A stretch of 56,323 nucleotides of DNA from NCBI GenBank assembly GCA_964440505.1, contig CAYTSP010000139.1, positions 1 through 56,323 of the forward strand. Reading direction: 5' to 3'. The notes under the pieces were generated by a model that was not told the origin of the DNA, made no database searches, and saw only the letters and a program-made list of their open reading frames with translations. The translations under genes were made by a program, and so were the position numbers. Shown piece after piece: positions 2,921-32,741 of the stretch (position 1 is the stretch's first letter; every line of letters starts with the position of its first letter). Source of the stretch: an uncultured Nitrospinaceae bacterium (GTDB taxonomy: Bacteria > UBA8248).

Positions 2921-3250
2921 CCCATGCCGCCCATGAAAACGAGGCCCAGGAGCACCACCCATATCAGGGCGTTGTGGCTCAGGGGCAGGACAACAGTGAC
3001 GTCCGAAAACATGAGCGTGTACCCAAAAAGCCCAGTGGCGGAGAATACCGAGCCGATAAGGAGCCACAAGACGCCGCGCCTGCCCGCATAGACCCTGCCC
3101 ACTTCTCCCAGGAACGGCTTCATCGCGAGAAATGCGAACCCCCAGTTTTTCAAACATTGCGAAAAGGGCTTCGCAAATTTATAATGAGCAGTCTCCGCAA
3201 AATGCGGTGAGACGCTTCGGAAATTCGCCTTTCCCAAGAGGATCAATCCG

Positions 3251-9677: not shown

Positions 9678-9852
9678 TTCTCCGTCGAGTTCGACCTTTC
9701 GGGCCGATTCGGGATGAGGCGGAGACGGCGGTTGCGCGAGGCGGCGGAAAACAGCCCCAAACACGCGTCCCGCTCTAAGCTGCTATATGATGATGAGGCC
9801 TTGGCCTCTAATTTTGCGGGGGGAAGTTCCGCGAGGACGCAGAGGGAGCGTG

Positions 9853-10110
9853 ATGATCAAACAGCCGCTAACCAGTTTCCGCCGGATCCTCGTCGCCAAC
9901 CGGAGCGAAATCGCCATCCGCGTGTTTCGCGCCTCGGTCGAACTCGGGGTCGAGACGATAGCGATCTATTCACAAGAAGACCGTTTCGCGCTGCACCGCT
10001 TCAAGGCCGACGAGGCCTACCTGATCGGCCGGGGGATGGGCCGATCGGGGCCTATCTCAGCATCGACGAGGTGATCCGCGTTGCGCGCCCAAACGCCGTC
10101 ATCGCTGATC
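9853..10110 (+). pseudogene. pyruvate carboxylase / biotin carboxylase N-terminal stub, frameshifted and truncated
   Basis: An agagggag RBS precedes the ATG at 9853. [59 protein letters not shown] matches the biotin-carboxylase N-terminus. Around 10035 the match jumps frame ([17 protein letters not shown]) and then is lost. Only ~85 of the >1000 expected codons remain. Confidence 0.7.
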
Positions 10111-10304
10111 TTCCGGGAAGTGGCGGAATCGAAGGCGGGATGCCGCCTCTCCCGCTCACTGGACGCGCCGAACCCGTTGCCGAACACCCTTGCGCGCGTT
10201 TGCCCGCATTTGCCGCCTGTGCGGTTTCCCGGGCGCATGGCAGGATGGCCTTGCGGTGCCATGGGCCGTCCGTTCCTCAAAAACGGAGAATTTCCGTAAA
10301 ATTC

Positions 10305-10334
10305 GATAAATAAAGATAAATAAAGATAAATTTA
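10305..10334. repeat. AT-rich tandem decamer gataaataaa x3
   Basis: gataaataaa gataaataaa gataaattta was read directly, in the intergenic space between the pyc stub and the ftsY 3' end. Confidence 0.7.
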
Positions 10335-10398
10335 ATTAGGCTATATGGTTGATATATATGGGATTATCTTATTCTTTCAGGAAAGGCCGCCCAAAAAA

Positions 10399-11385
10399 CT
10401 ATTCGCCGAAAATGGCCTCGATGAACGCATCCGGGTCGAAATCGAGCAGGTCTTCCACCGACTCGCCCACGCCGACATACTTTATCGGTATACCGCTTTC
10501 ATAAGTGGCGCCGAGCGCCACGCCGCCCTTGGCCGTTCCATCGAGTTTGGTGAGCACAAGGCCCGTTACGCCCAGGGCCGGGCCGAATTCCCGCACCTGG
10601 GAGAGTACGTTCTGCCCGGACGTTGCGTCCAATACGAGCAGCACCTCGTGGGGCGCCGCATCGATGAGGCGCTGCGTTACGCGTCTGAGCTTTCTCAGTT
10701 CTTCCATGAGATTTTTTTTCGTATGCAGGCGTCCCGCCGTATCCACGAGCAATACGTCGACGCCGCGCGCCTTCGCCGCCTGAACGGCGTCATACACCAC
10801 GGCGGATGAATCCGCCCCCTCTTGATGACGAATAATTTCGCATCCGCTCCGCTCGGCCCATGCCGCCAATTGCTCACCGGCCGCGGCCCGGAACGTATCC
10901 CCCGCCGCCAGCATGACTTTCCGTTTTTCGGCCGAGTAACGCGATGCGAGCTTGCCGGCCGTCGTCGTCTTGCCCACACCGTTGACGCCCACCAGTAAAA
11001 TGATTCTGGGCTCTCCTGCAGGAGGATCCTGAGGCGTGTACGCAGCAGGACTTTCAGGGTTTTCCAGACAAGAGTGCATGATTTCCTGAACGCGTGTTTT
11101 CGCATCCGCACCCGCGCCCTCTCCGGCTTTTAGTTTTTCCAGCAGCGACTCAACAAGAAGGGGCCCCAGATCCGCCATGTACAGGACTTCTTCCAACTCC
11201 TCGAGCGTATTCTCATCAATGCGCCCGGCCATCAAGCCCTTCACCTGGCCGAGAAAACCCCCTCTTGTCTTCGAGAGACCTTGGCGCAATCTGCCGAACC
11301 AGCCTTTTGCGCCGCTATCTCTCTGTGCGCTTTCTTCCTTCCCGGGATCAGACATCAAGATATTTCCCAAACCTGCGCCAAACAA
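10399..11385 (-). CDS. ftsY: signal recognition particle receptor FtsY
   Basis: SRP-GTPase motifs are GVNGVGKTTT (G1), DTAGR (G3) and TKLDG (G4), with an N-terminal helical/acidic region. Confidence 0.95.
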   Translation of the reverse strand: MFGAGLGNILMSDPGKEESAQRDSGAKGWFGRLRQGLSKTRGGFLGQVKGLMAGRIDENTLEELEEVLYMADLGPLLVESLLEKLKAGEGAGADAKTRVQEIMHSCLENPESPAAYTPQDPPAGEPRIILLVGVNGVGKTTTAGKLASRYSAEKRKVMLAAGDTFRAAAGEQLAAWAERSGCEIIRHQEGADSSAVVYDAVQAAKARGVDVLLVDTAGRLHTKKNLMEELRKLRRVTQRLIDAAPHEVLLVLDATSGQNVLSQVREFGPALGVTGLVLTKLDGTAKGGVALGATYESGIPIKYVGVGESVEDLLDFDPDAFIEAIFGE

Positions 11386-11444
11386 ACCAACCCCGGCGAC
11401 GGTGCGCCGGGGTCATCTTCAACATAGCCTTCCGTGAAAAGATG

Positions 11445-14400
11445 CTACACCTGCGATTCCAAAACTGCTTCTCCCACCCCATTTACTCTCGCCTCCTCGC
11501 GATTCAGCTTGACGGAGACAATTTCTGAAACTCCTTTTTCTCTTTGCGTCACGCCGTAGAGTTGATTCGCGTACGACATGGTCTTCTTATTATGAGTGAT
11601 AATGATGAACTGACTCCGGTTCTCAAGTTCGGCAATCACTTCCCGAAAACGTCCGACATTGGCGTCATCGAGAGTGGCGTCCACCTCGTCGAGAATACAA
11701 AACGGACTCGGCCTGACGCTGAAGACTGCGAACAACAAGGAAATAGCGGTAAGCGCCTTCTCCCCTGCGGAGAGGAGCATGATGTTCGAGGGACGCTTGC
11801 CCGGGGGCCTCACTTCTATATCAACCCCCGTCTCCAGGGGGTCATTCGGGTCGAGCAGGTACATGCGCGCCTCACCGCCCTGAAAAAGACGTCCAAAAAT
11901 GTCGGCGAAAGCACTGCCCACCTCCTCGAACGCCGCCAGGAAACGGGATTTCGTTGTCTTGTTCAGTCTCTCGATCGTTGTGTGCAGATCGGCGATGGAA
12001 TTTTCCAAATCCTGCTGTTGTTCTTGTAAAAACACATATTCCTGATTGATTTCATCGTATTCCTGCGCGGCAAGGGGATTTACCTCTCCCATGCGGTCAA
12101 GTCTTTTCTGCAACATCTCCAGACGATTCACAATCTCCTGATACTGGGGAAGTTCTTCCCGCCGACTCTCTGCAGTTGCCTCAAGATTGACTTGACACTC
12201 CACTTTGGCGGATTCAACCATAGATTCCCGTTGTACACGAAGCTTCGTACGCCGCTCCGCCGCCTCATTTACCTCACCGGTCAGGTATGAAGCCTTCTCT
12301 TTTATCTCGCGAATCGAATCACCCAGTTGCTCATCACGTGATTGCACTTCACGCAAAACGCGCTCACGCTCGGTCTGTTCGGCTTCCACCCTGGCTTTCT
12401 CATCCTGAAAAGTGAGGATTTCCTCTCTGCATTGCCCGAGGCTTTCTTGAAAGCGTTTTCTCTTGTCGCTCGACCCGAGCTGATCTTCTTCTCTGCGAAT
12501 TTTGCGGGCTGAATTCTGGGATATCGCATTCTCGAGCCGTTGAATTTCGGCCCGACCAACAGCCACCTGTCCATTTATTTCCGTCAAGGCGATTCTTTTG
12601 TCCGTGACACGCACCTCCATCTCTGAATACCGCTCGCTGGCGTCACTGACCTTTCTTTCGATCTCCTGGACACGCAAGGTGATCTCTATAATCGCCTCTT
12701 CCGAGTGGAGACTTTCATCCCTGGCCACCTGGAGGGTCTCTTCGAGGCGCATCTGCTCCGTGCGCGTCTCCTCTTGCGTGGATTCAAGCGAGACCAACCG
12801 TTTTTTCAATGCCTCGTGTTTATCTTCCGTCGAGCGGAGGATTCCTTCGGCCTCCACGCGCAATACCGCAGCCCGTTGATTCGCCTCAACCGCAAGACGG
12901 TTTCTTTGTTCCGCTTTCATGAGTTCTTCACTCAATCTTTCAGAAATCGGTTCCAATTCATGAACTTGCGCCTCCAGCTGCTCCGCTTTGAGGCGTACCT
13001 CCTCGCATCTTCTCGAACGCTCCAAAAAACCTTCATTTCGACCCAAACCGCCTTCCACCGCACCATTTGCATGAATAATTTCACCCTTCAAAGTCACACA
13101 GACGATGCCTTGGGACCCATTGCACCAGGCCGCCTGCGCGGCATCGATATCCTCAACCACCACAACATTACAGAGCAGCGATTGAATGAGAGGGCGATAA
13201 TCCACTTGGCAGCGAACAAAATCCGCCGCCGCACCGAGAACACCTTCCCCCAGCGGGACGATGGCATCCGGTTGAGCATCCACCTCCTTGGGCAGAGCCA
13301 CACCACGCCCGGTTTCCGAACCCATCAGCGCGCGGAGCGCATTCACCGCATCACCCGGACTCTCCACCACCACGCCCATCAATTGATCGCCAAGGACCGT
13401 TTCAATGGCTTTTTCAAATTTCGGATCGACGCGAATTACATCGGAAAAAGACGCCAGAACTTGAGCACCACAGGACCGGAACGCTTCCATATCCGCTATT
13501 CCACTCTCGTCGGAGCCCAAAACACCTTCTAAGGCCGAGAGAGCGGATTTCGCTTCCATCAAGGACTCTTTCGTCCCAGCCACGGATTCTTCGTGGCGGC
13601 TCAAAGACTCGGACGTTCCCGCGCACTCAGACCTCGCCCGTTCAAGTTCTTGTTTTCCGCGGATTTCAGATGCAATCAGCGATTCCAGCCGGCTTTTCGC
13701 ATCATCGGCGTCGGTTTGTGTCAATTCGATCTGACGCCTGATCTCCTCAAGCTCTTCACCAGTCTTTGCAGTGGACTCGGTCAGTCCCTCACGTCGCGAT
13801 TCGATGGAAGCGATTTGCTGACGAGTCGCGCTCAAACGCTCTTTTTCTTCCTCTTGAGCGCTCCGGGTCTCCTCAAGAATTCGTTCGTGTTCTCTTAAGT
13901 TCTCACGATAAGCGGCTAACTCGGCCACACCGACGTCATATTCCTCGCGCGCAAGACTCGATTGCCCCGTAAGCATCTCAAGTGTTGAAGCAAGCCCGAT
14001 TCTCTCATTCTCCAAGGTCGTGGTTTCAACATCGAGAGCCTGGACTTCCTCCATGCGACGTTCATCTTCCGTATCGAGTTCCTTGAGACGGCTGCCCAGC
14101 ATCTCAACCCGATTCTCCAGCCCCTGCAGGCAACCTTCCACTTCTACTGCTCGGCGGCGGGATTCCGCCAATGCCTCCGAACGCTCGGTGATCAAAATAC
14201 GCCCGTTTTCCCTTTCGGCTTCTAGAGAAGATAATTTCGCGGATACCGCTTGTTCTGCTTGTTTGATGCGGTTATACGCCTTTTCCGCGGGAACAAGTTC
14301 ATCGACAAGTTTGAGGTAATCGAGCACCATGATTCTTTGGGAAAGATCGGCAATTTCAGTTCGGTATTCCTTGTGAAATGTTGCTTTCCTCGCCTGGCGA

Positions 14401-15029
14401 CGCAAAGAGCCCAGGCGGGCTTCTTTCTCACGCATGATGTCAGCCACACGAAGCAGATTCGCCTGCGCCAGCTCCAGCTTTCTCAACGCTTCGTTCCGCC
14501 TGCTCTTGTACTTCATAATACCAGCGGCCTCTTCAATCAGAATCCGCCTGTCCAGTGGCCTCGCGTTCACGAGAGTCTCTATCTTGCCCTGTTCCACGAT
14601 GGAGAAAGTATCGAGGGAAACACCGGTATCCAGAAACAAGTCGACGATGTCTTTGAGGCGGCAAGGATTGCGATTGATGAGATATTCACTCTCCCCGGAG
14701 CGATACAACCGGCGGGTAACCACTACCTCGTCAAAATCCCTGAATGCGGGAGAGGTCACCACGCCTTTGAGATCGGTAATGGTGAGCGAGACCTCGGACA
14801 TCCCGAGTTGCTTGCGCTCGGCGCTACCGTTGAAGATAACATCCTCCATCTTCTTCGAGCGCATATTTTTAGGAGCCTGTTCGCCCAGAACCCACCGAAC
14901 GGCATCGCATACATTGCTCTTGCCGCATCCGTTGGGTCCGACCACAGCCGTGAGACCTTCGCCTATTTCAATCACGGTTTTTTCAACGAAGGACTTGAAC
15001 CCCTGCATCTCCAAGCGTTGGAATCGCAA
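11445..15029 (-). CDS. smc: chromosome segregation protein SMC
   Basis: It is 1194 aa with Walker A GPNGCGKSN, long coiled coils around a hinge, the signature LSAGEKALTA and Walker B FCILDEVDATLD. Confidence 0.95.
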   Translation of the reverse strand: MRFQRLEMQGFKSFVEKTVIEIGEGLTAVVGPNGCGKSNVCDAVRWVLGEQAPKNMRSKKMEDVIFNGSAERKQLGMSEVSLTITDLKGVVTSPAFRDFDEVVVTRRLYRSGESEYLINRNPCRLKDIVDLFLDTGVSLDTFSIVEQGKIETLVNARPLDRRILIEEAAGIMKYKSRRNEALRKLELAQANLLRVADIMREKEARLGSLRRQARKATFHKEYRTEIADLSQRIMVLDYLKLVDELVPAEKAYNRIKQAEQAVSAKLSSLEAERENGRILITERSEALAESRRRAVEVEGCLQGLENRVEMLGSRLKELDTEDERRMEEVQALDVETTTLENERIGLASTLEMLTGQSSLAREEYDVGVAELAAYRENLREHERILEETRSAQEEEKERLSATRQQIASIESRREGLTESTAKTGEELEEIRRQIELTQTDADDAKSRLESLIASEIRGKQELERARSECAGTSESLSRHEESVAGTKESLMEAKSALSALEGVLGSDESGIADMEAFRSCGAQVLASFSDVIRVDPKFEKAIETVLGDQLMGVVVESPGDAVNALRALMGSETGRGVALPKEVDAQPDAIVPLGEGVLGAAADFVRCQVDYRPLIQSLLCNVVVVEDIDAAQAAWCNGSQGIVCVTLKGEIIHANGAVEGGLGRNEGFLERSRRCEEVRLKAEQLEAQVHELEPISERLSEELMKAEQRNRLAVEANQRAAVLRVEAEGILRSTEDKHEALKKRLVSLESTQEETRTEQMRLEETLQVARDESLHSEEAIIEITLRVQEIERKVSDASERYSEMEVRVTDKRIALTEINGQVAVGRAEIQRLENAISQNSARKIRREEDQLGSSDKRKRFQESLGQCREEILTFQDEKARVEAEQTERERVLREVQSRDEQLGDSIREIKEKASYLTGEVNEAAERRTKLRVQRESMVESAKVECQVNLEATAESRREELPQYQEIVNRLEMLQKRLDRMGEVNPLAAQEYDEINQEYVFLQEQQQDLENSIADLHTTIERLNKTTKSRFLAAFEEVGSAFADIFGRLFQGGEARMYLLDPNDPLETGVDIEVRPPGKRPSNIMLLSAGEKALTAISLLFAVFSVRPSPFCILDEVDATLDDANVGRFREVIAELENRSQFIIITHNKKTMSYANQLYGVTQREKGVSEIVSVKLNREEARVNGVGEAVLESQV

Positions 15030-15167
15030 TTCAACACCTCGGCGGGCGGATGAACTTCATTTTCAGGGGGCGGTATAAGACACTACCAGGGCGGCAGGAA
15101 TCAATAACTTATCAGAATTCCCCGGCATCCGTAAAGCAAAATATTACATTCTAAGAACTCGTTGTCG

Positions 15168-15851
15168 CTAGACTTCCCCGATCTTATAAACGGCTTCTTT
15201 CGCCGCTACCTGCTCAGCCGCTTTTTTGGTCGTGCCTTGCCCACGTCCCATGACCTTACGACCGAGGCGAACTTCAACCTCGAATTTTTTTTCGTGCTCA
15301 GGACCACTCTCTCGAACCAGACGATAACCAGGTGGTTTATTGCCATTTTTTTGAGCCAACCGCTGAAGCTGGCTTTTGAAATCTTGCGATAGGACATCTT
15401 CTTCATTCAGGCCTGCAGCCCAGAACCATGATTGCGCCCATTGCGTACAACGAGCGTAACCGGCATCGAGATATATGGCGCCGACCAACGCCTCGACTGC
15501 TCCCGCCTGGATGGAAGGTTTTTGCCGACCGCCCGTTTTTTCTTCCCCTTTGCCCAGACGAATGAAGTTTCCCAGTCCACGGCGCTTAAAAACGCCCGCC
15601 AAAGTGCGGCCATTCACCCGTTCTGAGCGCATATGAGTCAGAACTCCCTCATCATCCGCCGGAAAATCTTTCCATAGTTTTTCCGTCACGATGAGTTGCA
15701 AAACAGCATCACCTAAAAATTCAAGTCGTTCATTATCTGAAGTGGGGGTTGAACTTTCTTGAGAAAAAGAGCGGTGCGTGAGGGCTCGAACGAGGAGTTC
15801 CTTGTTCGAAAACGAATAGCCGACTTGGGTTTCGATTTCACCCAGGGTCAC
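15168..15851 (-). CDS. rnc: ribonuclease III
   Basis: The RNase III signature NERLEFLGDAVL is present, with a C-terminal dsRBD (GPEHEKKFEVEV...GQGTTKKAAEQVAAKEA). The track ORF starts at 16025 and would overlap fabF by 116 nt. The GTG at 15851 (VTLGEIETQVGYSF...) gives a normal ~227-aa protein downstream of the fabF stop. Confidence 0.9.
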   Translation of the reverse strand: MTLGEIETQVGYSFSNKELLVRALTHRSFSQESSTPTSDNERLEFLGDAVLQLIVTEKLWKDFPADDEGVLTHMRSERVNGRTLAGVFKRRGLGNFIRLGKGEEKTGGRQKPSIQAGAVEALVGAIYLDAGYARCTQWAQSWFWAAGLNEEDVLSQDFKSQLQRLAQKNGNKPPGYRLVRESGPEHEKKFEVEVRLGRKVMGRGQGTTKKAAEQVAAKEAVYKIGEV

Positions 15852-25150: not shown

Positions 25151-25170
25151 CGCATTTGCCCGCATTTGCG
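25151..25170 (+). promoter_or_regulatory. direct repeat cgcatttgc x2 (10-bp period) upstream of the phage-derived operon; includes the 12-mer cccgcatttgcg
   Basis: cgcatttgcc cgcatttgcg was read directly, 128-147 nt upstream of the ATG at 25298. The 12-mer cccgcatttgcg (25159-25170) recurs identically at 32107-32118. Confidence 0.45.
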
Positions 25171-25297
25171 AGGCGAAGACTGCTCCCCGCTTTCCATATA
25201 TTCCACGACAGCGGCATCCTCTCGCGCCGGAGTGACGCGAAGGCGCGGCGGGAGAGCCGCTTCTCCCGATACGGGAGCCCTCATCCAGGAGAGTGGA

Positions 25298-26377
25298 ATG
25301 GGACATCGCTTCATGTATCAAAATCTCATCGATGAGGAGACGGCCATCGCCGCCACTTCCGTGGAAAAGGGATTCGTCGGCGCGGGCGTTCCCCGAGTCA
25401 CGGGCGCGGGCGGCTCGATGATCTTCTCGGGCGCCTATGCCGGGGAAGACCCGGAAGTCTACTCCGTGGAAATTGACGCCCCGGGTGATGTGGGAAGCGC
25501 CCGTTTCAAGTGGCGCAAGACGTCGACTCCCGCGGGCGGCTGGGAAGCCTCGAACATCCCCACCGCGCTGACGGATATCGCCCTGGATTCAGGCGCGAAG
25601 GTCCGCTTCGCAGGTGGCGCGGATTCACCCTCTTTCGCCTTAGGCGATCATTGGCAGGCGACGGCGAATCGCTTTTACTCGCCGAAAAGACTGTATGATC
25701 TCGACCCCGCCACGCGGTTGAGGAGCACCTCTCCGCCCGAAGACCCGTGGTCGCTCGCCCTCGATTTCGGCGCGGAAAAATCTCCCGACGCATTCATCGC
25801 TCACCTCCACAATTTCTCACCCGGAACAAGCCTCCGGATTCAGGCGAACAGCTCTGCAGACTGGCGCGCGCCCGCGCTTGATGAAAAGCTCGCCTGGCGC
25901 AATGGTACGCTCATCCACTATCTCTCCACTTCGCCGCGCTCGTATCGCCACTGGCGTCTTCTGGCCGAAGGCGCCGCGGGCGACTTGGATGCGTATCTGG
26001 AAATCTCGGAAATTTATCTGGGCGGTTATTTCGAGCCCGCCGATCACTTCTGGTTCGGAAACGTGGTGGGAGAAGAATCCTTCGAGGAAGGGGGCCGCAC
26101 GGAAAACATGGCGGAGCATCCGGTGCTCCTGAACCGGGGCCGCACGGTCACCCTGCCCTATGAGCGCATATCGGATGAGCAACGCGGGGAATTTCTTGCG
26201 ATGTACCGCGCTGTGAAGAACGTCGAAACACGGCGGGCCAAACCGTTCTTCGTTCATATGGATGTGGATGACCCCGCCTCGATAATACTCGCCCATTTCA
26301 CGGGCGGTTTCCTGCCTCGGCAGATGGGGCCGGATGATTTCTCCTTCGAACTTGTGCTTAAGGAAAGACTCGCATGA
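25298..26377 (+). CDS. phage-derived structural protein, function unassigned (P1)
   Basis: aggagag lies 4-5 nt before the ATG at 25298. It is first in a chain of translationally coupled genes, and its stop overlaps the next start (ATGA). I recognise no catalytic motif. The upstream part of the 25085 track ORF looks non-coding. Confidence 0.55.
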   Translation: MGHRFMYQNLIDEETAIAATSVEKGFVGAGVPRVTGAGGSMIFSGAYAGEDPEVYSVEIDAPGDVGSARFKWRKTSTPAGGWEASNIPTALTDIALDSGAKVRFAGGADSPSFALGDHWQATANRFYSPKRLYDLDPATRLRSTSPPEDPWSLALDFGAEKSPDAFIAHLHNFSPGTSLRIQANSSADWRAPALDEKLAWRNGTLIHYLSTSPRSYRHWRLLAEGAAGDLDAYLEISEIYLGGYFEPADHFWFGNVVGEESFEEGGRTENMAEHPVLLNRGRTVTLPYERISDEQRGEFLAMYRAVKNVETRRAKPFFVHMDVDDPASIILAHFTGGFLPRQMGPDDFSFELVLKERLA

Positions 26378-26907
26378 AGCGCGCTACGGACCAGGCTATC
26401 AAGGATATTGCCGGGCATGAAGGGAAAACCGCGCACGTCCTCTATCACCTCTCCACCGCCGGTGGAAAGCGCGTGTTCTGCGGCAAGCAGGTGCCCGACT
26501 CCCTGATCGGGCAGGGCGGAAGAATCCATTTCCTCGACGGGTCGCGGATTCTCGATGGCTCGCTCCTGCTGGGAGAGGGAGCGGAAGTGCTGCTCGGCGC
26601 CCATGACTGGATAGAGGACGGCGGCCGCTTCTCTCTCGGCGCGTTTCAGGGCCTATCCATTCTCGAGGCATTCAGAGAAAAAGAACTCTCGGGTCTTGCG
26701 ATAGCCATCAACAACGCTCCCGACATGGACGGCCACCCGCGTATGAGCCGTATGCTCGCGACGGAGCCGTTCGTGGGCGGGCGAGTCGACGTGCGCGTCG
26801 GGTTTTCGGGACAAAACATATCCGACGTTCTCTCGGTCGCGAGTTTCACCATCCGCCGGACCATCGAGCGCATCGAATCGGTCACGATTGAATGCGAGGG
26901 AAACTAG
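26374..26907 (+). CDS. phage-derived protein, function unassigned (P2)
   Basis: It has an ATGA overlap with P1 and the next ATG follows its stop directly. It contains FLDGSRILDGSLLLG, a motif repeated near the C-terminus of P3. Confidence 0.5.
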   Translation: MKRATDQAIKDIAGHEGKTAHVLYHLSTAGGKRVFCGKQVPDSLIGQGGRIHFLDGSRILDGSLLLGEGAEVLLGAHDWIEDGGRFSLGAFQGLSILEAFREKELSGLAIAINNAPDMDGHPRMSRMLATEPFVGGRVDVRVGFSGQNISDVLSVASFTIRRTIERIESVTIECEGN

Positions 26908-28119
26908 ATGGCCGACCCGACGACGGACAGGCTCTCGGATTCGTTTCAGATAGGCCGCGCTTCGCGATATGCCGCCCCTGAATTCGAAGACCAGAGCCTC
27001 CCCATCATCTACGGGGACTTGGCCACTCCTTCGCGCGAGAAAGCAGGCGTTTACGCACCCCCGAAAATCGACACCGCAGGTGACGGCGTCTACTGCGTGG
27101 CCGGGCACGAGATATGGGGCGGCGTCGTACTGTTCGACGACGATGGCCGCATCGAGGCGGATAATTACACGCTGGAACTCGCCCAGAACTTTCAGGGCCG
27201 TGGCGTCATCGCCACCGCCGCTTTCACCACCCCGCCAAAAGGGCGAGTGACGGCCGTATGCAAGGGCAGGAAAACCGCAGCGGGCGGGCTTATCGAAAAC
27301 CCCGCCGGGATCGTTCATGACCTCATGGAGAGCGTCTGGGGATTCAGTGAGCAGGATATCGACTTGCAGGCCCTCGCGCGCGCGGCAGCCGGCGCAAAGG
27401 CGCTCGGCTACCGGGCGGGCGGGATTATTCTGGATGATCATGCGCCCGCAGACGTTCTCACCGCGCTTTTGGGCGATTTCCTAGGACGATACGAAATCGA
27501 CCCGTTCGGTCGCCTGAAAATTCACATCGCCGGAGGGGAATCTTTCATTAACGCGCCACAAAAGGTATTGCCCCGCTTCGGCCAATCGCGCATCGAAGCG
27601 GAGATAGCGCGCGACACCGTCATCAACCAGGTTCCGGCGCTCTATGCGAGGAATTACCTGGGCGCGCGTTACATCAAACACGACGATGGAAGCGCTACCC
27701 AAAACAGGTCCTCCCAAAGGCTCTATGGCGTCAGGAGACCTCCTGAAAGCCCGCTCAGGCTCGAATGGATCCGGCGCGAGAGCGTGGCCGCCACTGTTCA
27801 ATCGCGCATCGTGGGGCGCTATCACGAACCCACCCGCATGCTCACCATCGAGGACGGCTCCCTGAGAGCGCTCGAAGTCGAACCGGACGACTACGTGGCG
27901 TTCAGCGTGCCCTGGATGCGCTCGAGGAAACTCGAACCCCTCGTGAATCAAATCGGAGAGGTTATCGAGGTGAATTACGACCTGGGTGAGCAGGGCATGG
28001 AACTCAAAATCCGGGATACCGGCTTTTTCCTGACGTCCTCCCCTCTTCTCGATGGCTCCAGAATACTTGAAGGCGATTGGCTCCTGGGTGCCGAGCGCGA
28101 CGCCGCCACTTACGCATAA
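26908..28119 (+). CDS. phage tail-tip/host-specificity-like protein (gpJ N-terminal-type) (P3)
   Basis: SLPIIYGDL... followed by ...IENPAGIVHDLMESVWGFSEQDIDLQAL...LGYRAGGIILD...ADVLTALLGDFLG resembles the conserved N-terminal tail-protein domain of lambda gpJ / GTA g15-type proteins. This is a recalled motif pattern, not a search result. Confidence 0.5.
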   Translation: MADPTTDRLSDSFQIGRASRYAAPEFEDQSLPIIYGDLATPSREKAGVYAPPKIDTAGDGVYCVAGHEIWGGVVLFDDDGRIEADNYTLELAQNFQGRGVIATAAFTTPPKGRVTAVCKGRKTAAGGLIENPAGIVHDLMESVWGFSEQDIDLQALARAAAGAKALGYRAGGIILDDHAPADVLTALLGDFLGRYEIDPFGRLKIHIAGGESFINAPQKVLPRFGQSRIEAEIARDTVINQVPALYARNYLGARYIKHDDGSATQNRSSQRLYGVRRPPESPLRLEWIRRESVAATVQSRIVGRYHEPTRMLTIEDGSLRALEVEPDDYVAFSVPWMRSRKLEPLVNQIGEVIEVNYDLGEQGMELKIRDTGFFLTSSPLLDGSRILEGDWLLGAERDAATYA

Positions 28120-28130
28120 AGGAGAAAACC

Positions 28131-29072
28131 ATGCCCATCGGCGCTGATCTGTCCGCCCGCTATACCGAGGAAGCCATCGGCGGCGACCACCCCACGAAAG
28201 CCCGCGTCATCGATCGTCTGGCCCTCGCCGCCCTGTTCCCGGACGGAAAAATCCGGGGCAACAGACAACCCATCGAATGCGCGGGCAGGCTCGATTACGT
28301 GAACGCCACCACCCTGGCGTTCAAGCCGACGCTGGGCTCCGCCTACTATCCGGCCGTCGCCAATCCCGTGGCGGGGCGCCACGTACCCTTCATCGATGAA
28401 GCGTCGGGAGACGTCTATTACGAGAATTTGCCCTGGGAGGGAATCACGCTGACGAACGCAGGCCTCGCAGCTGACAGTTCCTATGCCGTCTTCGTCTACG
28501 AGGACGGGGGCTCGCTCAAACTCGAATTCGACAGCACGGCAAGCTGGGCGTTCGACGCCGCCACGGGGCTGGCGCACAAAACGGATGACAAAAGCCGCAC
28601 CCTCGTCGGGGTCGCGAGAACGGACGGCTCGTCCCAGTTCGTTCTCGCGAACGACGTGTACGTCAGAAGTTTCTGGAACAAGGCGGAATACGCCGCACAG
28701 TCCAAAGGGACGCTCGCCACCACCCTGTCCACCGACTGGACCTCCGTCGCGACGCACGAAATCCTGACGTGGCCGGGCCACGACGTCATCCGCCAGGAAG
28801 CCGGCGGACAAGGATGGGTGAATTCAACGAGCATCGCGGGTCTGGCGGGCCTGGATATGAATCTCGAGCTGTTCGGCGGAACGGGGCAGGCCTACCCCGA
28901 AGTCGAAATCATCCGCCTGTCGAACAATGAAAAAGACAACTTCTCGATGGCGAGTACGCGAATATACACGGGCGCGCTCGCCGAGGTTCACTCCACGTTC
29001 GTCTTTCGCGTGGCGGGTTCGACCATCCTGAACATTGGCGACTATCTCTTCCAAAGCGTCGTTCTGATTTAG
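28131..29072 (+). CDS. phage-derived protein, possible fibre/receptor-binding component (P4)
   Basis: aaaggagaaaacc precedes the ATG at 28131. It is 313 aa with beta-rich composition and no recognisable motif. Confidence 0.45.
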   Translation: MPIGADLSARYTEEAIGGDHPTKARVIDRLALAALFPDGKIRGNRQPIECAGRLDYVNATTLAFKPTLGSAYYPAVANPVAGRHVPFIDEASGDVYYENLPWEGITLTNAGLAADSSYAVFVYEDGGSLKLEFDSTASWAFDAATGLAHKTDDKSRTLVGVARTDGSSQFVLANDVYVRSFWNKAEYAAQSKGTLATTLSTDWTSVATHEILTWPGHDVIRQEAGGQGWVNSTSIAGLAGLDMNLELFGGTGQAYPEVEIIRLSNNEKDNFSMASTRIYTGALAEVHSTFVFRVAGSTILNIGDYLFQSVVLI

Positions 29073-29081
29073 GAGACAAAC

Positions 29082-29777
29082 ATGGAAATCGAAGTGACAA
29101 AAGCCGTCGGCCCGCATTTTCGCGATGAACTGGAAGCTGCCGGCCTCGCGCACCTCTATCTGGGGAGCGCGCACCGGCTGAAAACGACCATGACGCCTGA
29201 CGCCGACTGGCAACCCGGACCCGGCGAAGTGGAATCCGCCCGTCCTGAAACCCACGGCCCAGGTCTCGACACGTGGGTCATCCACGTGGCCGATTCGAGC
29301 ACCCGGGCGCAGCGAGACGCCGTTCTCGCCGCACATGCCGCGCACGCGCCAGACGGCGTGGCGCAAATCCACCGCGACGAGGCGAAGGAGAAACTCAACC
29401 TTTTGCTGAACGCCGCCAAGGCGCGGGTCGTGGGCGTTCCGGTGAGCGCTCTGGGCGGCAAGCTGTCCGAATACGAGGAAAAAACCAGGCTCATCGACGC
29501 CTGGGCAAAGGATTCCGATACGGAGAAACTCACAAAACCGGGCTTCCTGCTCATCAAAAACAGAAAAGACGCCTATCCGGCGCGCTACGCGACGGGTCAA
29601 GGCGTGGTGGACGAGTGGGCGGGACGGCGAGCGGCCCTGCTCGGCAAGCTCGCCTCTCTCCTTAAAATTTATGATGAATGCGTGCGCGACATCCAGGATG
29701 CCGGCAACACCACGAGCACAGCGGCTCTGGACACCAAACTCGAAGAAGCCGCTTCTTCTTTCGACGCGGTGCGCTGA
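29082..29777 (+). CDS. phage-derived protein, function unassigned (P5)
   Basis: taggagacaaac precedes the ATG at 29082. It is 231 aa and helical in character, and its stop overlaps the next ATG (TGATG). Confidence 0.45.
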   Translation: MEIEVTKAVGPHFRDELEAAGLAHLYLGSAHRLKTTMTPDADWQPGPGEVESARPETHGPGLDTWVIHVADSSTRAQRDAVLAAHAAHAPDGVAQIHRDEAKEKLNLLLNAAKARVVGVPVSALGGKLSEYEEKTRLIDAWAKDSDTEKLTKPGFLLIKNRKDAYPARYATGQGVVDEWAGRRAALLGKLASLLKIYDECVRDIQDAGNTTSTAALDTKLEEAASSFDAVR

Positions 29778-30160
29778 TGGCGTCTGAAGGAAACGGGAAA
29801 GGGCTCCAGATTTTCCTGTCCATCCTGAGCATCGCCGGTCTCGGTGTCGCCGCCTATACCCCGCTCTACAACCAGATCGTGAACGTGGAAACGCGTCTGG
29901 CGGCCCACATGGCCGAGCGTGGCCACCCCTGGCTTTTGGAGAAAAACGCGGGCGCGCGCGTCCGCTTCCAGGAAGTCGAAACCCGGTTGCGGGAGGCGAA
30001 GACGATCGCCGATTTAACATTCCGTGAACTGAAAGCAATCTCCGTGAAAAAAACGCGCGAGGACGTACAAACTTTTGCGCAAATACTTCGCCGCCTGCGC
30101 AAGGTCGAAACCGCGCTCGCCAGACTCGACGAGCGCCTGAACAAGGAGCGTCTACCATGA
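29777..30160 (+). CDS. N-terminally membrane-anchored coiled-coil protein (P6)
   Basis: MASEGNGKGLQIFLSILSIAGLGVAAYTPLY is a single TM segment, followed by heptad-like helices (RLREAKTIADL...LRKVETALARLDERL). The layout resembles an i-spanin or assembly factor, but this is unproven. Confidence 0.45.
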   Translation: MASEGNGKGLQIFLSILSIAGLGVAAYTPLYNQIVNVETRLAAHMAERGHPWLLEKNAGARVRFQEVETRLREAKTIADLTFRELKAISVKKTREDVQTFAQILRRLRKVETALARLDERLNKERLP

Positions 30161-30279
30161 TTCCCCACCTTCTCGCGGCGCTTTTCCCGGTCGCCGCCGT
30201 ATTGTGCGCCGTCGCGGCCATCGAGCCGCGCCTCATCACGAACCACCTGTGGCATTTCATCAACCCCTGGGCGGATTAG
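30157..30279 (+). CDS. 40-aa hydrophobic peptide (P7)
   Basis: Absent from the ORF track. It has an ATGA overlap with the P6 stop and reads MIPHLLAALFPVAAVLCAVAAIEPRLITNHLWHFINPWAD*, with one TM-like segment. Confidence 0.3.
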   Translation: MIPHLLAALFPVAAVLCAVAAIEPRLITNHLWHFINPWAD

Positions 30280-30319
30280 CGCGTTCGGTTGCGCATCCCA
30301 TCCAGCAACTCGTTCATGA

Positions 30320-32005
30320 ATGAGGAATTCCATGGCGGAGCAAGTCCATAATATCTCGATAACGAAGAAAATAGACCTGAATTCCGGGAACAGCCTGAAA
30401 GTCCTCGAGCGTTTCACCAAAGCGGCGGGACAGGCCAGAATCGCTACGGAAAAACTCAACGCCGAAACGCGCGGGTCCCGGAGCGCGCTCGAAAAATCGA
30501 GCCGCACCTTCGTCGGGTCCGCAGAACGTCTCCGGGGCGTCGGCGTCTCGTCCACCGAAGCCGCCGAGGGGATGAACTCCCTGTGGAGGAATGCGGAACG
30601 AGCCGGCTCCCGGCTCGGCTCCGGCCCGCTTGCCAGAGGCCTGGACGAGGTCAAAAGGAAAGCCGCGGACCTGCCCGCCTCTTTTCAGGTCGCCGGAAGA
30701 GCGGTGAACGACTTCGCCACGGCTAGCGAGCGAACGCTTACCCGATTTTTCTCGGGCGTACTTAGCGGCAAAATCGACAGCGCCAAGGATCTGTTCAGCG
30801 ACCTGAAAAACCACGCCATCAACATGGTGCGTAACGCCGCCGCAGAGATGGCGAGCACGCAATTCATCAAACCGGCGGTGAGCGCGCTCCAGAATTTGGG
30901 TACGGGCTTGCTGGGTGATTTAAGCAAGGGTCTGTTTAAGGTATTCGGCTTCTCCAAGGGTGGTCTGGTGAAAAAACCCACCCTGGGCCTTATCGGCGAG
31001 GCGGGGCCGGAACTCGTGGTGCCGCTGGCGAAAATCGGCGGCGAGCAGGGAATCATGCGCCTTTTCAAATCCATCTCCGAGATCGAGGCGGCGAATCGCC
31101 TGGGCGGCACGGCGGTCGCCACCGGCGCGGGCGCAAGGGCGAGCAGCGAACTGGCCGCGCGGATTGCAGCCGCAAAGGCGGCGGCGACCCTGCAAATCGC
31201 CTTCTCCGCGCTGGACTTCCTGGGAGGCCCCAAAACCCTGAAAAGGGGAGCCAATCTGGGCATCAACGTGGCGGGCGCCCTCCCCGCGCTCTCGGGCGCC
31301 ACGGGCCTCGCCGCCTTCGGGCCTGCGGCGGGCGCTTTTCTGCTCACCGACGTCCTGTTCAACAAGGGAGGGGCCATCAAGCAGGTGCTCTCCTTCCTGG
31401 GCTTCAAGGGCTTCAGGGACAGGTCCACGCCCTTCACCCGGGGGATAGCGAATCTCGGGCAGGCGGCCGGGCTGTATCTCGCGCTCGATAGATTCCGGAA
31501 AACCGGCGTGGCGGTCGAAGCTGAATATCTCCAGCCTCCCCAAGCGGTTTTCGAAGGGAAGATGAGCGTGGACCCTTTTTTGCTGGAAAAAGCCGGTCTG
31601 GCTTTCCAGGTCATCCAGCGGGCGGCCGGAGAAGCGGGCATCTCGCCCCAGGAGGGCGTGAAGCGGTATTTCGGCAAGGATTTTTACAGCGCCTATCTGG
31701 GAGCGCTGCCCATACCCGAAGGCGACGCGGCGGGGCGTTTCGTCAAGCGCTCAGCGCTCAGGCTCGTGGGCGAGGCGGGGCCCGAGCACATCATGAACGT
31801 GAATCACCCGCAATCCATTGATTTCTTTCAGCGCGGCGTGCGGCCCATCATCCGCGACGCGATACGGGGCGAGATGGGCGGGGGTGACACCCACGTCTAC
31901 CACATTCACATCGAAGGGAACCTGAGCGACAACCGCACGCTCGAGAAGCTCTCGCGCAAGCTCGAAGACATCAACAGGCGCCGCCGCCGCTACGGGCAGG
32001 CGTAG
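30320..32005 (+). CDS. tape-measure-like / ejection-type phage protein (P8)
   Basis: It is 561 aa, Ala/Gly-rich and helical. It carries two copies of the G-E-A-G-P-E motif common in tail tape-measure proteins (GLIGEAGPELVVPL and LRLVGEAGPEHIMNV). The likely real start is the ATG at 30332, preceded by gagga. Confidence 0.55.
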   Translation: MRNSMAEQVHNISITKKIDLNSGNSLKVLERFTKAAGQARIATEKLNAETRGSRSALEKSSRTFVGSAERLRGVGVSSTEAAEGMNSLWRNAERAGSRLGSGPLARGLDEVKRKAADLPASFQVAGRAVNDFATASERTLTRFFSGVLSGKIDSAKDLFSDLKNHAINMVRNAAAEMASTQFIKPAVSALQNLGTGLLGDLSKGLFKVFGFSKGGLVKKPTLGLIGEAGPELVVPLAKIGGEQGIMRLFKSISEIEAANRLGGTAVATGAGARASSELAARIAAAKAAATLQIAFSALDFLGGPKTLKRGANLGINVAGALPALSGATGLAAFGPAAGAFLLTDVLFNKGGAIKQVLSFLGFKGFRDRSTPFTRGIANLGQAAGLYLALDRFRKTGVAVEAEYLQPPQAVFEGKMSVDPFLLEKAGLAFQVIQRAAGEAGISPQEGVKRYFGKDFYSAYLGALPIPEGDAAGRFVKRSALRLVGEAGPEHIMNVNHPQSIDFFQRGVRPIIRDAIRGEMGGGDTHVYHIHIEGNLSDNRTLEKLSRKLEDINRRRRRYGQA

Positions 32006-32105
32006 GCAAAGGGAGCCGGAAGATGGACGTCTGCTTCAAGAAGAGAACCAGGAGGCGCATCGCGCGGGATGGCTCACGAATCCCGCCGGTTTTGCGCACG
32101 CAACT

Positions 32106-32160
32106 CCCCGCATTTGCGCGCATCCGGGCCCCGCAATTCCCCGCAAATCCCCGCATTTCC
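32106..32160 (+). promoter_or_regulatory. array of ccccgcaWWt units (one isolated, then three at an exact 10-bp period)
   Basis: The units are ccccgcattt (32106-32115), ccccgcaatt (32129-32138), ccccgcaaat (32139-32148) and ccccgcattt (32149-32158). They lie 101-155 nt downstream of the P8 stop. Confidence 0.45.
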
Positions 32161-32178
32161 CCTCGATAATTTACGGAA

Positions 32179-32219
32179 ATTTATCGAAAAACCCCGTGAA
32201 TTTAGCGATATTTATCGAA
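32179..32219 (+). repeat. direct repeat atttatcgaa x2, 31 bp apart
   Basis: atttatcgaa occurs at 32179-32188 and 32210-32219. The reverse complement ttcgataaat also occurs at 10302-10311, next to the decamer repeat. Confidence 0.4.
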
Positions 32220-32741
32220 TTATCCGGAATACAAAAATCAAGTTATTGTTTTTAAGCCGGTTACGAATCCATTGAAACAAATGTAATCAAGGCGCAAGCG
32301 GTTTCGGTCAAACCCCTGCGTATCCCGGGCGGTTTGTGTCCGGCGGGCGGTGGTAAGCGTTCGGGCAGGCCGTTATAGAACGGGGCACAGCAATCAATTT
32401 GGTCGAGTCGAAAACGGTTTGGCAGATATGATTGCCTGATTGTGTGCACTGGACGTGCAGCGCTATTGCTTGATTTTTACGTCGCTCTTGAATTATGAAT
32501 GCACTGCGCCGAGCGAATCACTCTAAGAAAAGACGACAGACCGATGTTGATTCAGACGTCTCCATCACGGCTTGCCTGAACGTGTATGCACGCGCCCAGG
32601 ATTGCAAGCATGGTTTTGAATAGTTCGGCGCAAAGTGGTCAGGCGCATTCGTGTATCCGTATGTGGACGCGCCAGTTGATGCAAGCATGTCTTCGAACGA
32701 TTCGGGGTCCGTAGTCAGGTGCAGTCGTATGTCAGACCTCT

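What the first reader, a model, noticed from the sequence alone, without database searches (positions are those of the whole stretch)
25298..32005. Intact, tightly coupled 8-gene phage tail-tip/tape-measure-like module with no other phage parts
The eight plus-strand genes are joined by ATGA/TGATG overlaps or gaps of 10 nt or less, apart from one 40-nt gap, and each has a good RBS. I saw no frameshifts. The module is visibly more GC-rich than the flanking fab/smc genes. P3 has a gpJ-like N-terminus, and P8 has two GEAGPE motifs typical of tape-measure proteins. No capsid, portal, terminase, tube, sheath, integrase or repressor gene is nearby. The left neighbour is a host M23 peptidase and the right neighbour is IS110 debris. 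The gene order, with the tape-measure-like gene last, is also atypical for siphoviruses. It may be a prophage remnant that has not yet decayed. Alternatively it may be a domesticated, stand-alone tail-tip-derived device for adhesion, puncturing or delivery.
Basis: partly seen in the sequence, partly recalled or inferred. Interest (0 to 1): 0.6.

Follow-up and report, generated by a model that had tools for sequence, protein, structure and literature searches.

The report
Scattered domesticated phage particle: tail locus
These eight genes are the tail-tip and tape-measure part of an old phage-derived particle kit. Its head, DNA-packaging and tail-tube genes lie elsewhere on the chromosome of these sponge-associated Nitrospinota bacteria. 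The whole kit is inherited with the host and kept by selection, so it is a candidate gene transfer agent and not a dying prophage.

Summary
Eight co-directional, overlapping genes (P1-P8, 25298-32005) sit between a host M23 peptidase gene and IS110 debris. P3 folds like siphophage tail hubs (T5 pb3, lambda gpJ, RcGTA). P8 matches tape-measure families.

"No other phage parts" is true only of the window. The same genome holds a terminase (split into two ORFs), a portal, a protease-capsid fusion, a neck protein and a tail tube on two other contigs. In complete genomes of the genus these lie about 2 Mb from the module. In three sister genera the structural genes from portal to fibre form one cluster, with the tape-measure gene in front of P1. 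The window's order is therefore a circular permutation of a relocated segment.

All tested parts are single-copy in 20 of 22 species of the genus and missing together in two. One of those two keeps capsid and portal stubs. dN/dS is 0.1-0.5, and dS and tree topology match the flanking housekeeping genes. The same host-type promoter signal precedes all three loci.

Best reading: the tail locus of a vertically inherited, dispersed, GTA-like element. DNA packaging and transfer are untested. This scan has earlier flagged other GTA candidates in Nitrospinota, beside dnaA on other DNA; this element is not near dnaA.

The parts
25152..25202 (+). Promoter-like signal: two 10-bp direct repeats (GCATTTGCCC GCATTTGC, 25152-25169), 27 nt, then a -10-like TATATT (25197-25202). 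It lies 95 nt upstream of the P1 start.
   Evidence: Invariant in the upstream regions of nine species, which otherwise diverge. The same signal at the same spacing precedes the terminase and capsid genes at the other two loci, in G000, G031 and G022. It places the P1 start at ATG 25298, not at the upstream TTG 25085.
25298..26377 (+). P1, 359 aa. First gene after the tape measure in the ancestral order, which is the distal-tail-protein (Dit) position. Function inferred from position only.
   Evidence: Directly downstream of the TMP gene in G010, G012 and G039. Weak match to phrog_8610. About 600-aa forms with a central insertion occur in other genera. The fold model is poor (pLDDT 50) and suggests only a jelly-roll or CBM32-like sandwich. 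dN/dS 0.17-0.37.
26374..26907 (+). P2, 177 aa. Small tail-tip protein between P1 and the hub.
   Evidence: Conserved with P3 in all genera. No Pfam or PHROG match. Its language-model neighbours are viral hypothetical proteins, and 13% of one such cluster carry PF09931, which is a lead only. It shares the motif LDGSRIL(D/E)G..LLG with the C-terminus of P3.
26908..28119 (+). P3, 403 aa. Tail hub (Tal / baseplate hub, equivalent to the gpJ N-terminal part).
   Evidence: AlphaFold model from 19 sequences; residues 10-190 have pLDDT 80-90. Foldseek: Chi tail tip 8vjh_A E 1.7e-5, DT57C 8hqz_A, JBD30 8rk3_b, T5 7zqp_b. VIA-align: Sf11 9occ_E Z 14.2, T5 pb3 7zhj_b Z 13.6, RcGTA 6tba_8A Z 10.3, lambda J 8iyk_J Z 9.1. 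Single copy in 20 of 22 species of the genus.
28131..29072 (+). P4, 313 aa. Probable tail fibre or receptor-binding protein, with a conserved N-terminal anchor and a lineage-specific distal part.
   Evidence: The first ~45 residues align with the gene that follows the hub in six other genomes, and the rest does not. That gene matches tail-fibre PHROGs in G048 (phrog_11355, E 7e-13). P4 itself matches phrog_34307, of unknown function.
29082..29777 (+). P5, 231 aa, genus-specific. Possibly a fibre-associated or assembly protein (weak lead).
   Evidence: Found only in the 20 genomes of the genus that have the module. Its language-model neighbours include XkdW and DUF4376 clusters at scores of 0.87-0.92, which are leads only. 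dN/dS 0.23-0.36.
29777..30160 (+). P6, 127 aa. N-terminal transmembrane helix followed by a coiled coil. Holin- or spanin-like position after the fibre genes (inferred).
   Evidence: Hydrophobic segment at residues 8-30. Highly conserved in nine species. dN/dS 0.11-0.20.
30157..30279 (+). P7, 40 aa. Hydrophobic N-terminus with an invariant Cys17 and a conserved C-terminal tail.
   Evidence: Present, with an ATGA overlap to P6, in all nine genomes examined.
30320..32005 (+). P8, 561 aa. Tape measure protein with two GEAGPE motifs (residues 226 and 484).
   Evidence: phrog_1535 E 4.5e-8, plus four further tape-measure PHROGs among eight weak matches. Homologous over its full length (27% identity) to the 561-aa gene in the TMP slot of G048, which scores E 2.6e-14. 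Single copy in the genome. dN/dS 0.13-0.44.
32099..32165 (+). Cluster of five or six copies of the same 10-bp repeat, immediately after P8. It may belong to the next transcription unit and not to the module.
   Evidence: Read. Conserved at the same place in G031, G014, G025, G030 and G035.

Best explanation
The module is the tail-tip and tape-measure locus of a phage-derived particle gene set of about 15.3 kb. The set is fixed in the chromosome of a family of Nitrospinota and, in this genus, is scattered over three sites.

Shown:
- The genome also encodes a GpA-type large terminase (ATPase and nuclease as two overlapping ORFs), a portal, a protease-scaffold-capsid fusion, an HK97-gp10-like neck protein and a tail tube.
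- All tested parts are single-copy, co-present or co-absent across species, syntenic with host genes, under purifying selection and codon-adapted to the host.
- All three loci are preceded by the same host-type promoter signal.

Inferred mechanism:
- P1-P8 are transcribed as one message from the promoter at 25152-25202.
- P8 sets the tail length.
- P1, P2 and a P3 hub trimer form the tip on which the tube protein, encoded at the head locus, polymerises.
- P4 fibres dock by their conserved N-terminus.
- P6 and P7 act at the membrane, possibly in release.
- Heads built and filled at the other loci join these tails. The particles carry host DNA between cells, as gene transfer agents do.
For: Head genes in the same genome: capsid 72% and portal 75% identical to those of the contiguous cluster in G048.

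Dispersal: in G031, G014, G022 and G034 the module lies about 2 Mb from the head genes.

Ancestral contiguity: G039, G048, G010 and G012 have capsid, neck, tube, TMP, P1, P2, P3 and fibre (or parts of that order) in one cluster. The host genes cdaA (upstream of the capsid gene) and F420 ligase (downstream) flank the head genes in the genus and in G048 or G039.

Phyletic pattern in the genus: P1, P3, P5, capsid, portal and both terminase halves are each present in the same 20 of 22 genomes. G023 keeps a 52-aa capsid stub between cdaA and F420 ligase and a 41-aa portal stub. In G023 and G024 the module is missing between the M23 gene and the conserved downstream gene.

Selection: dN/dS is 0.1-0.5 for P1-P6 and P8, and 0.11-0.39 for the head genes measured. 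dS is close to that of the flanking fab, plsX and ppx genes.

Co-divergence: trees of the module and of the flanking genes agree in all well-supported clades, and pairwise identities correlate with r = 0.97.

Host-like composition.

Shared promoter.

No close phage relative: the best matches are 32-33% identical.

No integrase, repressor or replication gene next to any of the three loci among the ORFs scanned.
Against: Nothing here shows that particles are made, that they package host DNA, or that DNA is delivered.
- The terminase is split in two in all 20 genomes, which could mean loss of packaging, although both halves are under purifying selection.
- No small terminase, endolysin or dedicated regulator was identified.
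- The promoter signal occurs at about 77 sites in front of diverse host genes. It links the loci only weakly.
- The flanking genes used for congruence are physically linked to the module.
- The assignments of P1, P2, P5, P6 and P7 rest on position or on weak leads.
- G039 shows frameshifts in the terminase and P2. These may be decay or assembly error.
Confidence: 0.6

Rival explanations
1. A domesticated particle with a job other than gene transfer. Examples are a killing particle used against competitors, or a vehicle that delivers protein or DNA to the sponge host or to other symbionts. The head genes would be retained for assembly or cargo.
For: The same conservation, dispersal and co-loss data apply. 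They show that the set is useful but not what it is used for. The organism lives in sponges. The fibre gene after the hub has a swappable distal part between lineages.
Against: Terminase ATPase, terminase nuclease and portal are all kept under purifying selection. This points to DNA packaging, which tailocins do not need. No toxin or effector domain was found in P1-P8.
Confidence: 0.2
2. A stand-alone device derived from a tail tip (adhesion, puncturing or delivery) that works without head or tube.
For: The window itself holds no head, tube or sheath gene among the flanking ORFs scanned. The module has its own promoter.
Against: A tape measure has no known role without a tube, and the tube gene of the same ancestral cluster is retained elsewhere. 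The module and the head locus are missing together in G023 and G024. In sister genera the same genes are part of one head-tail cluster.
Confidence: 0.05
3. Remnants of a defective prophage that have not yet decayed, with no present function.
For: IS110 debris lies beside the module. Decayed or fragmented copies exist in some genomes: G047, G046, G050 and perhaps G039.
Against: All eight genes are intact in 20 species whose synonymous divergence reaches 0.3-0.7. dN/dS is 0.1-0.5. Host flanks are conserved across genera. Codon usage is host-like. Where function was evidently lost, the genes were deleted down to stubs and not left as long pseudogenes.
Confidence: 0.05
4. An active temperate phage, or one recently active, that integrated at this site.
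For: More distant homologues sit in complete-looking head-tail clusters with terminase and portal in G008, G004 and G006.
Against: In this genus the genes lie about 2 Mb apart and are interleaved with host genes such as cdaA. No integrase, repressor or replication gene was found at any of the three loci. The chromosomal position is the same in all species examined. No close relative exists in the viral collections.
Confidence: 0.02

Closest known systems
RcGTA of Rhodobacter capsulatus and RcGTA-like viriforms (Rhodogtaviriformidae; criteria in PMC9662315)
   Same: A siphovirus-derived head-tail gene set of about 15 kb. It is endogenised, spread over several loci, vertically inherited, co-diversifying with the host and lacking replication and lysogeny genes. 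The P3 hub aligns structurally with a chain of the RcGTA virion (6tba_8A, Z 10.3).
   Different: Not homologous at family level. The genome has no HK97-type capsid (PF05065) and no PF04860 portal. The head uses a protease-scaffold-capsid fusion (PF25209 / Mu gpT-like), and the terminase is GpA-type and split. The host phylum is different. Packaging and transfer are untested here.
Other independently domesticated GTAs (BaGTA of Bartonella, VSH-1/BhGTA of Brachyspira, Dd1 of Desulfovibrio, VTA of Methanococcus). Named from my own knowledge and from PMC9662315.
   Same: GTAs arose several times from different tailed phages. This element would be one more independent case.
   Different: No sequence relation was tested or seen. 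Those systems have experimental evidence of DNA transfer, and this one has none.
Tail-tip complexes of siphophages (T5 pb3, lambda gpJ with gpH tape measure, Chi, JBD30, Sf11, T1)
   Same: P3 shares the hub fold. P8 is a tape measure. The ancestral gene order TMP, P1, P2, hub, fibre is the canonical one.
   Different: P3 is only 403 aa, that is, hub domains without the long gpJ or pb3 extensions. In some genera it is fused to a LamG domain. In this genus the tape-measure gene has moved to the end of the operon, and the tube gene lies 2 Mb away.
F-type tailocins and PBSX-like defective prophages
   Same: Phage structural genes kept by the host for its own use.
   Different: Tailocins lack capsid, portal and terminase. 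Here these are retained under selection and are lost together with the tail module. PBSX is one contiguous cluster.

Membership tests
Gene transfer agent / viriform (criteria of Kogay et al. 2022, PMC9662315) | Particle proteins derive from tailed phages (sequence similarity to caudoviricete proteins) | tested here: met
   Terminase, portal, capsid, neck, tube, tape measure and hub all match phage families or folds.
Gene transfer agent / viriform (criteria of Kogay et al. 2022, PMC9662315) | Gene set fully endogenised in the host genome, often across several loci | tested here: met
   Three loci in this genus, with host genes between and around them. The tail module lies about 2 Mb from the head genes in four complete genomes.
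Gene transfer agent / viriform (criteria of Kogay et al. 2022, PMC9662315) | Mostly vertical inheritance and co-diversification with the host | tested here: met
   Same chromosomal sites in all species examined. dS equals that of the neighbouring genes, the trees are congruent, and r = 0.97. Limits: nine genomes, and the host markers are linked to the module.
Gene transfer agent / viriform (criteria of Kogay et al. 2022, PMC9662315) | The gene set cannot be packaged whole into one particle | tested here: inconclusive
   Loci 2 Mb apart cannot share one headful. Head capacity, which is the criterion as written, cannot be read from sequence.
Gene transfer agent / viriform (criteria of Kogay et al. 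2022, PMC9662315) | Particles hold mostly random host DNA | not testable with these tools
   Needs sequencing of encapsidated DNA.
Gene transfer agent / viriform (criteria of Kogay et al. 2022, PMC9662315) | Packaged DNA is delivered to other cells | not testable with these tools
   Needs a transfer assay. The organisms are uncultured.
RcGTA-type GTA (Rhodogtaviriformidae) | HK97-type major capsid (PF05065) and PF04860 portal homologous to RcGTA g5 and g3 | tested here: not met
   Neither family is found in the genome, which is 92% complete. The capsid is PF25209 / Mu gpT-like.
Siphovirus tail-tip module (TMP, Dit, Tal, fibre) | Tape measure protein | tested here: met
   Five tape-measure PHROGs match P8, the best at E 4.5e-8. 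Its homologue occupies the TMP slot in sister genera.
Siphovirus tail-tip module (TMP, Dit, Tal, fibre) | Hub / Tal with the gp27-like hub fold | tested here: met
   Foldseek E 1.7e-5 to 2e-4 and Z 9-14 against solved siphophage hubs.
Siphovirus tail-tip module (TMP, Dit, Tal, fibre) | Distal tail protein (Dit) fold in the gene after the TMP | tested here: inconclusive
   The P1 model has pLDDT 50. It gives only generic beta-sandwich matches (Z 8-10) and no Dit in the list. The PDB profile search found nothing.
Siphovirus tail-tip module (TMP, Dit, Tal, fibre) | Canonical order with the TMP first and the tube gene upstream | tested here: not met
   In this genus the TMP is last and the tube gene is at another locus. 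The canonical order is met in the sister genera.
Tailocin (phage-tail-like bacteriocin) | Tail genes kept without capsid and packaging genes | tested here: not met
   Capsid, portal and terminase co-occur with the module, are under selection, and are lost with it.
Intact or recently defective prophage | One contiguous element with integration, regulation and replication genes and variable presence between strains | tested here: not met
   The genes are split over loci 2 Mb apart. The flanks are host genes and the position is fixed across species.

The most novel reading that the evidence does not exclude
An independently evolved gene transfer agent in sponge-associated Nitrospinota. It would be built from a Mu-like fused protease-scaffold-capsid head, a two-piece GpA-type terminase and a lambda/T5-like tail. 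Its genes have been scattered by the host: the tail-tip segment was excised, circularly permuted and re-inserted 2 Mb away. Each piece is now driven by a host-type promoter. I found no described GTA of this phylum.
Probability: 0.5. Interest if true: 0.75.

Novelty: new member of a known kind. Interest (0 to 1): 0.62.

Why it matters
Only a handful of independent GTA lineages are established, and all were found in cultured organisms. A conserved, dispersed particle gene set in uncultured sponge symbionts would extend the phenomenon to another phylum. It would also suggest a route of gene exchange inside sponge microbiomes.

The element offers a natural series for studying how a prophage is taken apart by its host: contiguous in some genera, partly scattered in G048, three loci in this genus, and deleted to stubs in G023. 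The terminase split, conserved in 20 species, bears on whether ATPase and nuclease can work as separate chains.

For annotation, it shows that an "orphan" tail module should be judged against the whole genome and not against one window.

Tried and rejected
I took genomic context from the genome search and the fetch from genomes instead.
- Pfam gave nothing above threshold for P1-P5 and P8.
- Profile searches of P3 and P1 against PDB sequences gave nothing.
- The P1 fold had pLDDT 50. Its CBM32/discoidin-like matches (Z 8-10.5) are too generic to assign a function.
- The sigma-70 consensus scan found no plus-strand promoter before P1 and no terminator enrichment. The conserved motif was found by aligning upstream regions instead.
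- I asked whether the promoter motif defines a dedicated regulon. It does not. About 77 sites precede unrelated host genes such as TctC, PDH E1, acyl-CoA dehydrogenase, GntR and an integrase.
- I looked for a small terminase upstream of the large one. The only candidate ORF in G022 is a YajQ-like host protein.
- Expression: one coral metatranscriptome holds contigs 88-95% alike over parts of P1, P4-P6 and P8. These are contigs from a relative, in a library that may contain DNA, so transcription is not shown. Parts without cover mean nothing.
- IMG/VR gave one locus at 32% identity. Cultured phages gave at best 33% for the capsid (Microcystis phage Mae-JY22).
- I tested whether this is the Nitrospinota cluster 'beside dnaA' noted earlier in the scan. 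dnaA is 170 kb to several Mb away in five genomes, and sequence look-ups found no shared words with those windows.
- The capsid dN/dS is invalid because an in-frame stop in the upstream extension shifted the alignment. I did not use it.
- The M23 peptidase is not part of the element. It stays in G023 and G024, which lack the module, and it is absent from G022, G033 and G034, which have the module.


Full report
**1. The observation**

The window contains eight plus-strand genes between 25298 and 32005. The junctions are -4, 0, 11, 9, -1, -4 and 40 nt, and GGAG-type ribosome-binding sites precede most starts. The seventh gene is a 40-codon ORF (30157-30279) that standard ORF lists miss. It is present, with an invariant cysteine and a conserved C-terminal tail, in all nine genomes of the genus that I examined.

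The left neighbours on the minus strand are host genes: M23 peptidase, a hexapeptide transferase, Ppx/GppA, YceD and PlsX. The right neighbour is an IS110-family transposase fragment.

The module has 61.4% GC and the flanks have 50-54%. The genome mean is 59.9%, however, and the module's codon usage lies between the 23rd and 67th percentile of 2,220 host genes. The module is host-like in composition, and it is the flanks that are GC-poor.

**2. What the proteins are**

- P8 matches five tape-measure PHROGs (best phrog_1535, E 4.5e-8) and carries GEAGPE at residues 226 and 484.
- P3 gave no sequence-family match. A model built from 19 homologues is confident over residues 10-190. It hits siphophage tail hubs:
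  - Foldseek: Chi 8vjh_A (E 1.7e-5), DT57C, JBD30, T5.
  - VIA-align: Sf11 9occ_E (Z 14.2), T5 pb3 (Z 13.6), the RcGTA virion 6tba_8A (Z 10.3), roseophage R4C (Z 10.2), lambda gpJ (Z 9.1).
- P4 shares its first ~45 residues with the gene that follows the hub in six other genomes and differs afterwards. In G048 that gene matches tail-fibre PHROGs. This is the usual design of a fibre with a conserved anchor and an exchangeable receptor-binding part (inference).
- P1 is unresolved. It occupies the distal-tail-protein position, but its model is poor.
- P2 and P5 have only language-model leads.
- P6 has one transmembrane helix followed by a coiled coil. P7 is a small hydrophobic peptide. They sit after the fibre genes, where phages usually keep lysis genes. 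This is suggestive only.

**3. Distribution**

Names attached to homologues place the organism in Nitrospinota. The DNA comes from sponge metagenomes.

P3 is present once, intact and 403 aa long, in 20 of 22 species of the genus and in 12 of 15 genera of the phylum sampled. A pattern scan of one genome for each of 185,579 species found relatives only in this group.

Within the genus the module always lies beside the hexapeptide-ppx-yceD-plsX genes.

**4. The module is not alone**

In sister genera (G010, G012, G039, G048) a tape-measure homologue lies upstream of P1 or P2. Further upstream lie a tail tube, neck proteins and a ~740-aa protease-capsid fusion.

Searching the window's own genome with those proteins found the capsid fusion on contig C329 (72% identity) and the portal on C261 (75%). 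Annotation of these contigs gives:

| Contig | Coordinates | Product | Match |
|---|---|---|---|
| C261 | 168-1226 | Large-terminase ATPase, GpA type | PF05876; phrog_675 positions 20-345 |
| C261 | 1223-1870 | Terminase nuclease (separate overlapping ORF) | phrog_675 positions 358-550 |
| C261 | 1867-3237 | Portal | phrog_10963, E 6e-48 |
| C329 | 9811-11988 | Capsid fusion | PF25209 |
| C329 | (not resolved) | HK97-gp10-like neck protein | Pfam/PHROG |
| C329 | 14234-15373 | Tail tube | PF18906 |

Together with the module this is about 15.3 kb of structural genes.

The head genes are embedded among host genes. The diadenylate cyclase gene cdaA lies directly upstream of the capsid gene, and an F420 ligase gene lies downstream.

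No HK97-type capsid (PF05065) or PF04860 portal exists in the genome. This is therefore the only head set detected, and it is not of the RcGTA type.

**5. History of the arrangement**

In the complete genomes G031, G014, G022 and G034 the module lies about 2 Mb from the head genes. The portal and capsid genes are themselves 10-12 kb apart, with host genes between them.

In G039 the genes from portal to fibre form one cluster: portal, capsid, neck, tube, TMP, P1, P2, P3 and fibre. The terminase lies about 10 kb upstream of the portal.

cdaA sits upstream of the capsid gene in this genus and in G048. The F420 ligase gene sits downstream in G022, G039 and G048.

The simplest history (inference) has three steps:

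1. An ancestral contiguous cluster lay between cdaA and the ligase gene.
2. In this genus the segment from TMP to fibre left that site and now sits beside the fab genes.
3. The order P1...P7, TMP is a circular permutation of TMP, P1.... That is what excision as a circle and re-insertion at a different breakpoint would give.

Scattering is not confined to this genus: in G048, P1 is on a different contig from the rest.

**6. Evidence for maintained function**

*(a) Co-occurrence.* P1, P3, P5, capsid, portal and both terminase halves are present in the same 20 genomes of the genus. They are absent from G023 and G024 (95% and 99% complete), from four small genomes of another genus, and from G038.

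*(b) Secondary loss.* G023 keeps the first 52 codons of the capsid gene between cdaA and the ligase gene, and the last 41 codons of the portal gene. At the tail site, G023 and G024 go straight from the M23 gene to the conserved downstream gene. Both loci were therefore lost in the same lineages, as expected if neither is useful without the other.

*(c) Selection.* Nei-Gojobori dN/dS is 0.10-0.51 for P1-P6 and P8, and 0.11-0.39 for terminase, portal, tube and neck genes. The P7 values rest on only 22 aligned codons and I do not use them. dS values are close to those of the adjacent fab, plsX and ppx genes.

*(d) Co-divergence.* Trees of the module and of the flanking housekeeping genes share all well-supported clades, and pairwise identities correlate with r = 0.97. 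The caveat is that these markers are linked to the module.

*(e) No close phage.* The nearest viral sequences are 32-33% identical.

**7. Regulation**

The upstream regions of P1 in nine species diverge freely except for one block. It consists of two 10-bp direct repeats (GCATTTGCCC GCATTTGC, window 25152-25169), followed after 27 nt by TATATT.

- The same signal at the same spacing precedes the terminase gene and the capsid gene in G000, G031 and G022.
- An extra copy precedes P8 in the species where lipoprotein genes have been inserted before it.
- G039 has a variant (GAATTT in place of GCATTT) before its TMP region and before P1.

The motif is not private to the element. About 77 sites exist in the genome, in front of unrelated host genes. 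I read it as a host promoter or activator signal that all three loci have acquired. That fits domestication. By itself it is only weak evidence of co-regulation.

**8. Interpretation**

Measured against the published GTA criteria (PMC9662315):

- Met: phage-derived proteins, endogenisation over several loci, and vertical inheritance.
- Inconclusive: the criterion that the gene set cannot be packaged whole. Loci 2 Mb apart cannot share one headful, but head capacity cannot be read from sequence.
- Not testable here: packaging of random host DNA and its delivery to other cells.

I therefore call the element GTA-like with confidence 0.6. I am far more confident (about 0.9) in the narrower statement that the module is one locus of a dispersed, vertically inherited, selected particle gene set.

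The main rival is a particle with a different use (0.2). A stand-alone tail-tip device, inert remnants and an active prophage are each contradicted by the data above.

The split terminase is the main internal doubt. It is split at the ATPase/nuclease boundary with an ATGA overlap in all 20 genomes. One genome of a sister genus (G013) has a single 686-aa ORF. Both halves are under purifying selection.

**9. Relation to earlier notes of this scan**

The scan has flagged GTA candidates in marine Nitrospinota before (e1-5050301, e1-2207982). Those are described as contiguous clusters beside dnaA with RcGTA-like head genes. The present element is far from dnaA in five genomes and lacks RcGTA-type head families. 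Word look-ups with a capsid from this genome and one from G006 found none of those windows. At the sensitivity of those checks the two elements appear to be different.

A first-reader note on another genome (e1-1160590) describes the same unusual combination: GpA-type terminase, fused Mu-like capsid ORF, and an opposite-strand gene between portal and capsid. That window shares a few words with this capsid, so it is probably a contiguous relative.

The literature searches found nothing on GTAs or conserved phage-like elements in Nitrospinota.

Noticed in passing
Genome-wide; in the window at 10196, 25152 and 32100: A tandem 10-bp repeat (GCATTT[CG]C[CG]C GCATTTGC) occurs at about 77 mostly intergenic sites in the genome. 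About half (43 of 77) are followed at about 27 nt by a -10-like box. Many sites are near contig ends, and several belong to a repeated ~80-nt sequence family. It looks like a lineage-specific promoter or activator signal. The factor that reads it is unknown.
   Followed up: partly
window 32099-32240: Directly after P8 lie five or six copies of the 10-bp repeat, followed by an AT-rich stretch with repeated ATTTATCGAA-like words. The block is conserved at the same place in five other species. Sequencing depth rises here in metagenomes, which suggests a multi-copy element.
   Followed up: partly
L056 (G000:C261) 168-1870; the same in G031 and G022: The large terminase is encoded as two overlapping ORFs (ATPase 352 aa, nuclease 215 aa, ATGA junction). 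Match coordinates indicate the same junction in all 20 genomes of the genus. One sister-genus genome (G013) has a single 686-aa frame. This may be a true two-chain terminase or a -1 frameshift site.
   Followed up: partly
L032 11552-12715; L033 11595-13382; L034 11466-12062; L041 11464-12117: In five species, one to three tandem paralogous lipoprotein genes (184-217 aa, with a lipobox) are inserted between P7 and P8. P8 then has its own copy of the promoter signal. These genes are absent from the window.
   Followed up: partly
window 26533-26559 (P2) and 28048-28074 (P3): P2 and the C-terminus of P3 share the motif LDGSRIL(D/E)G..LLG. It may be a shared interaction or assembly element.
   Followed up: no
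G010:C19, G013:C571, G041:C452, G048:C51, G050:C164 (coordinates): In other genera P1 is about 600-630 aa long, with an insertion of about 220-250 aa after residue ~185. In G048 it lies on a different contig from the rest of the cluster.
   Followed up: no
L035 and L049 (G039:C1, 3103100-3143099): The contiguous copy in G039 shows frame changes inside the terminase ATPase, the terminase nuclease and P2. This is either early decay or indel errors in a long-read assembly.
   Followed up: no
P0030-P0033; L044 8083-10011: In some relatives the hub protein is extended to about 640 aa by a C-terminal LamG domain (PF13385). That would add a likely binding domain directly to the hub.
   Followed up: no
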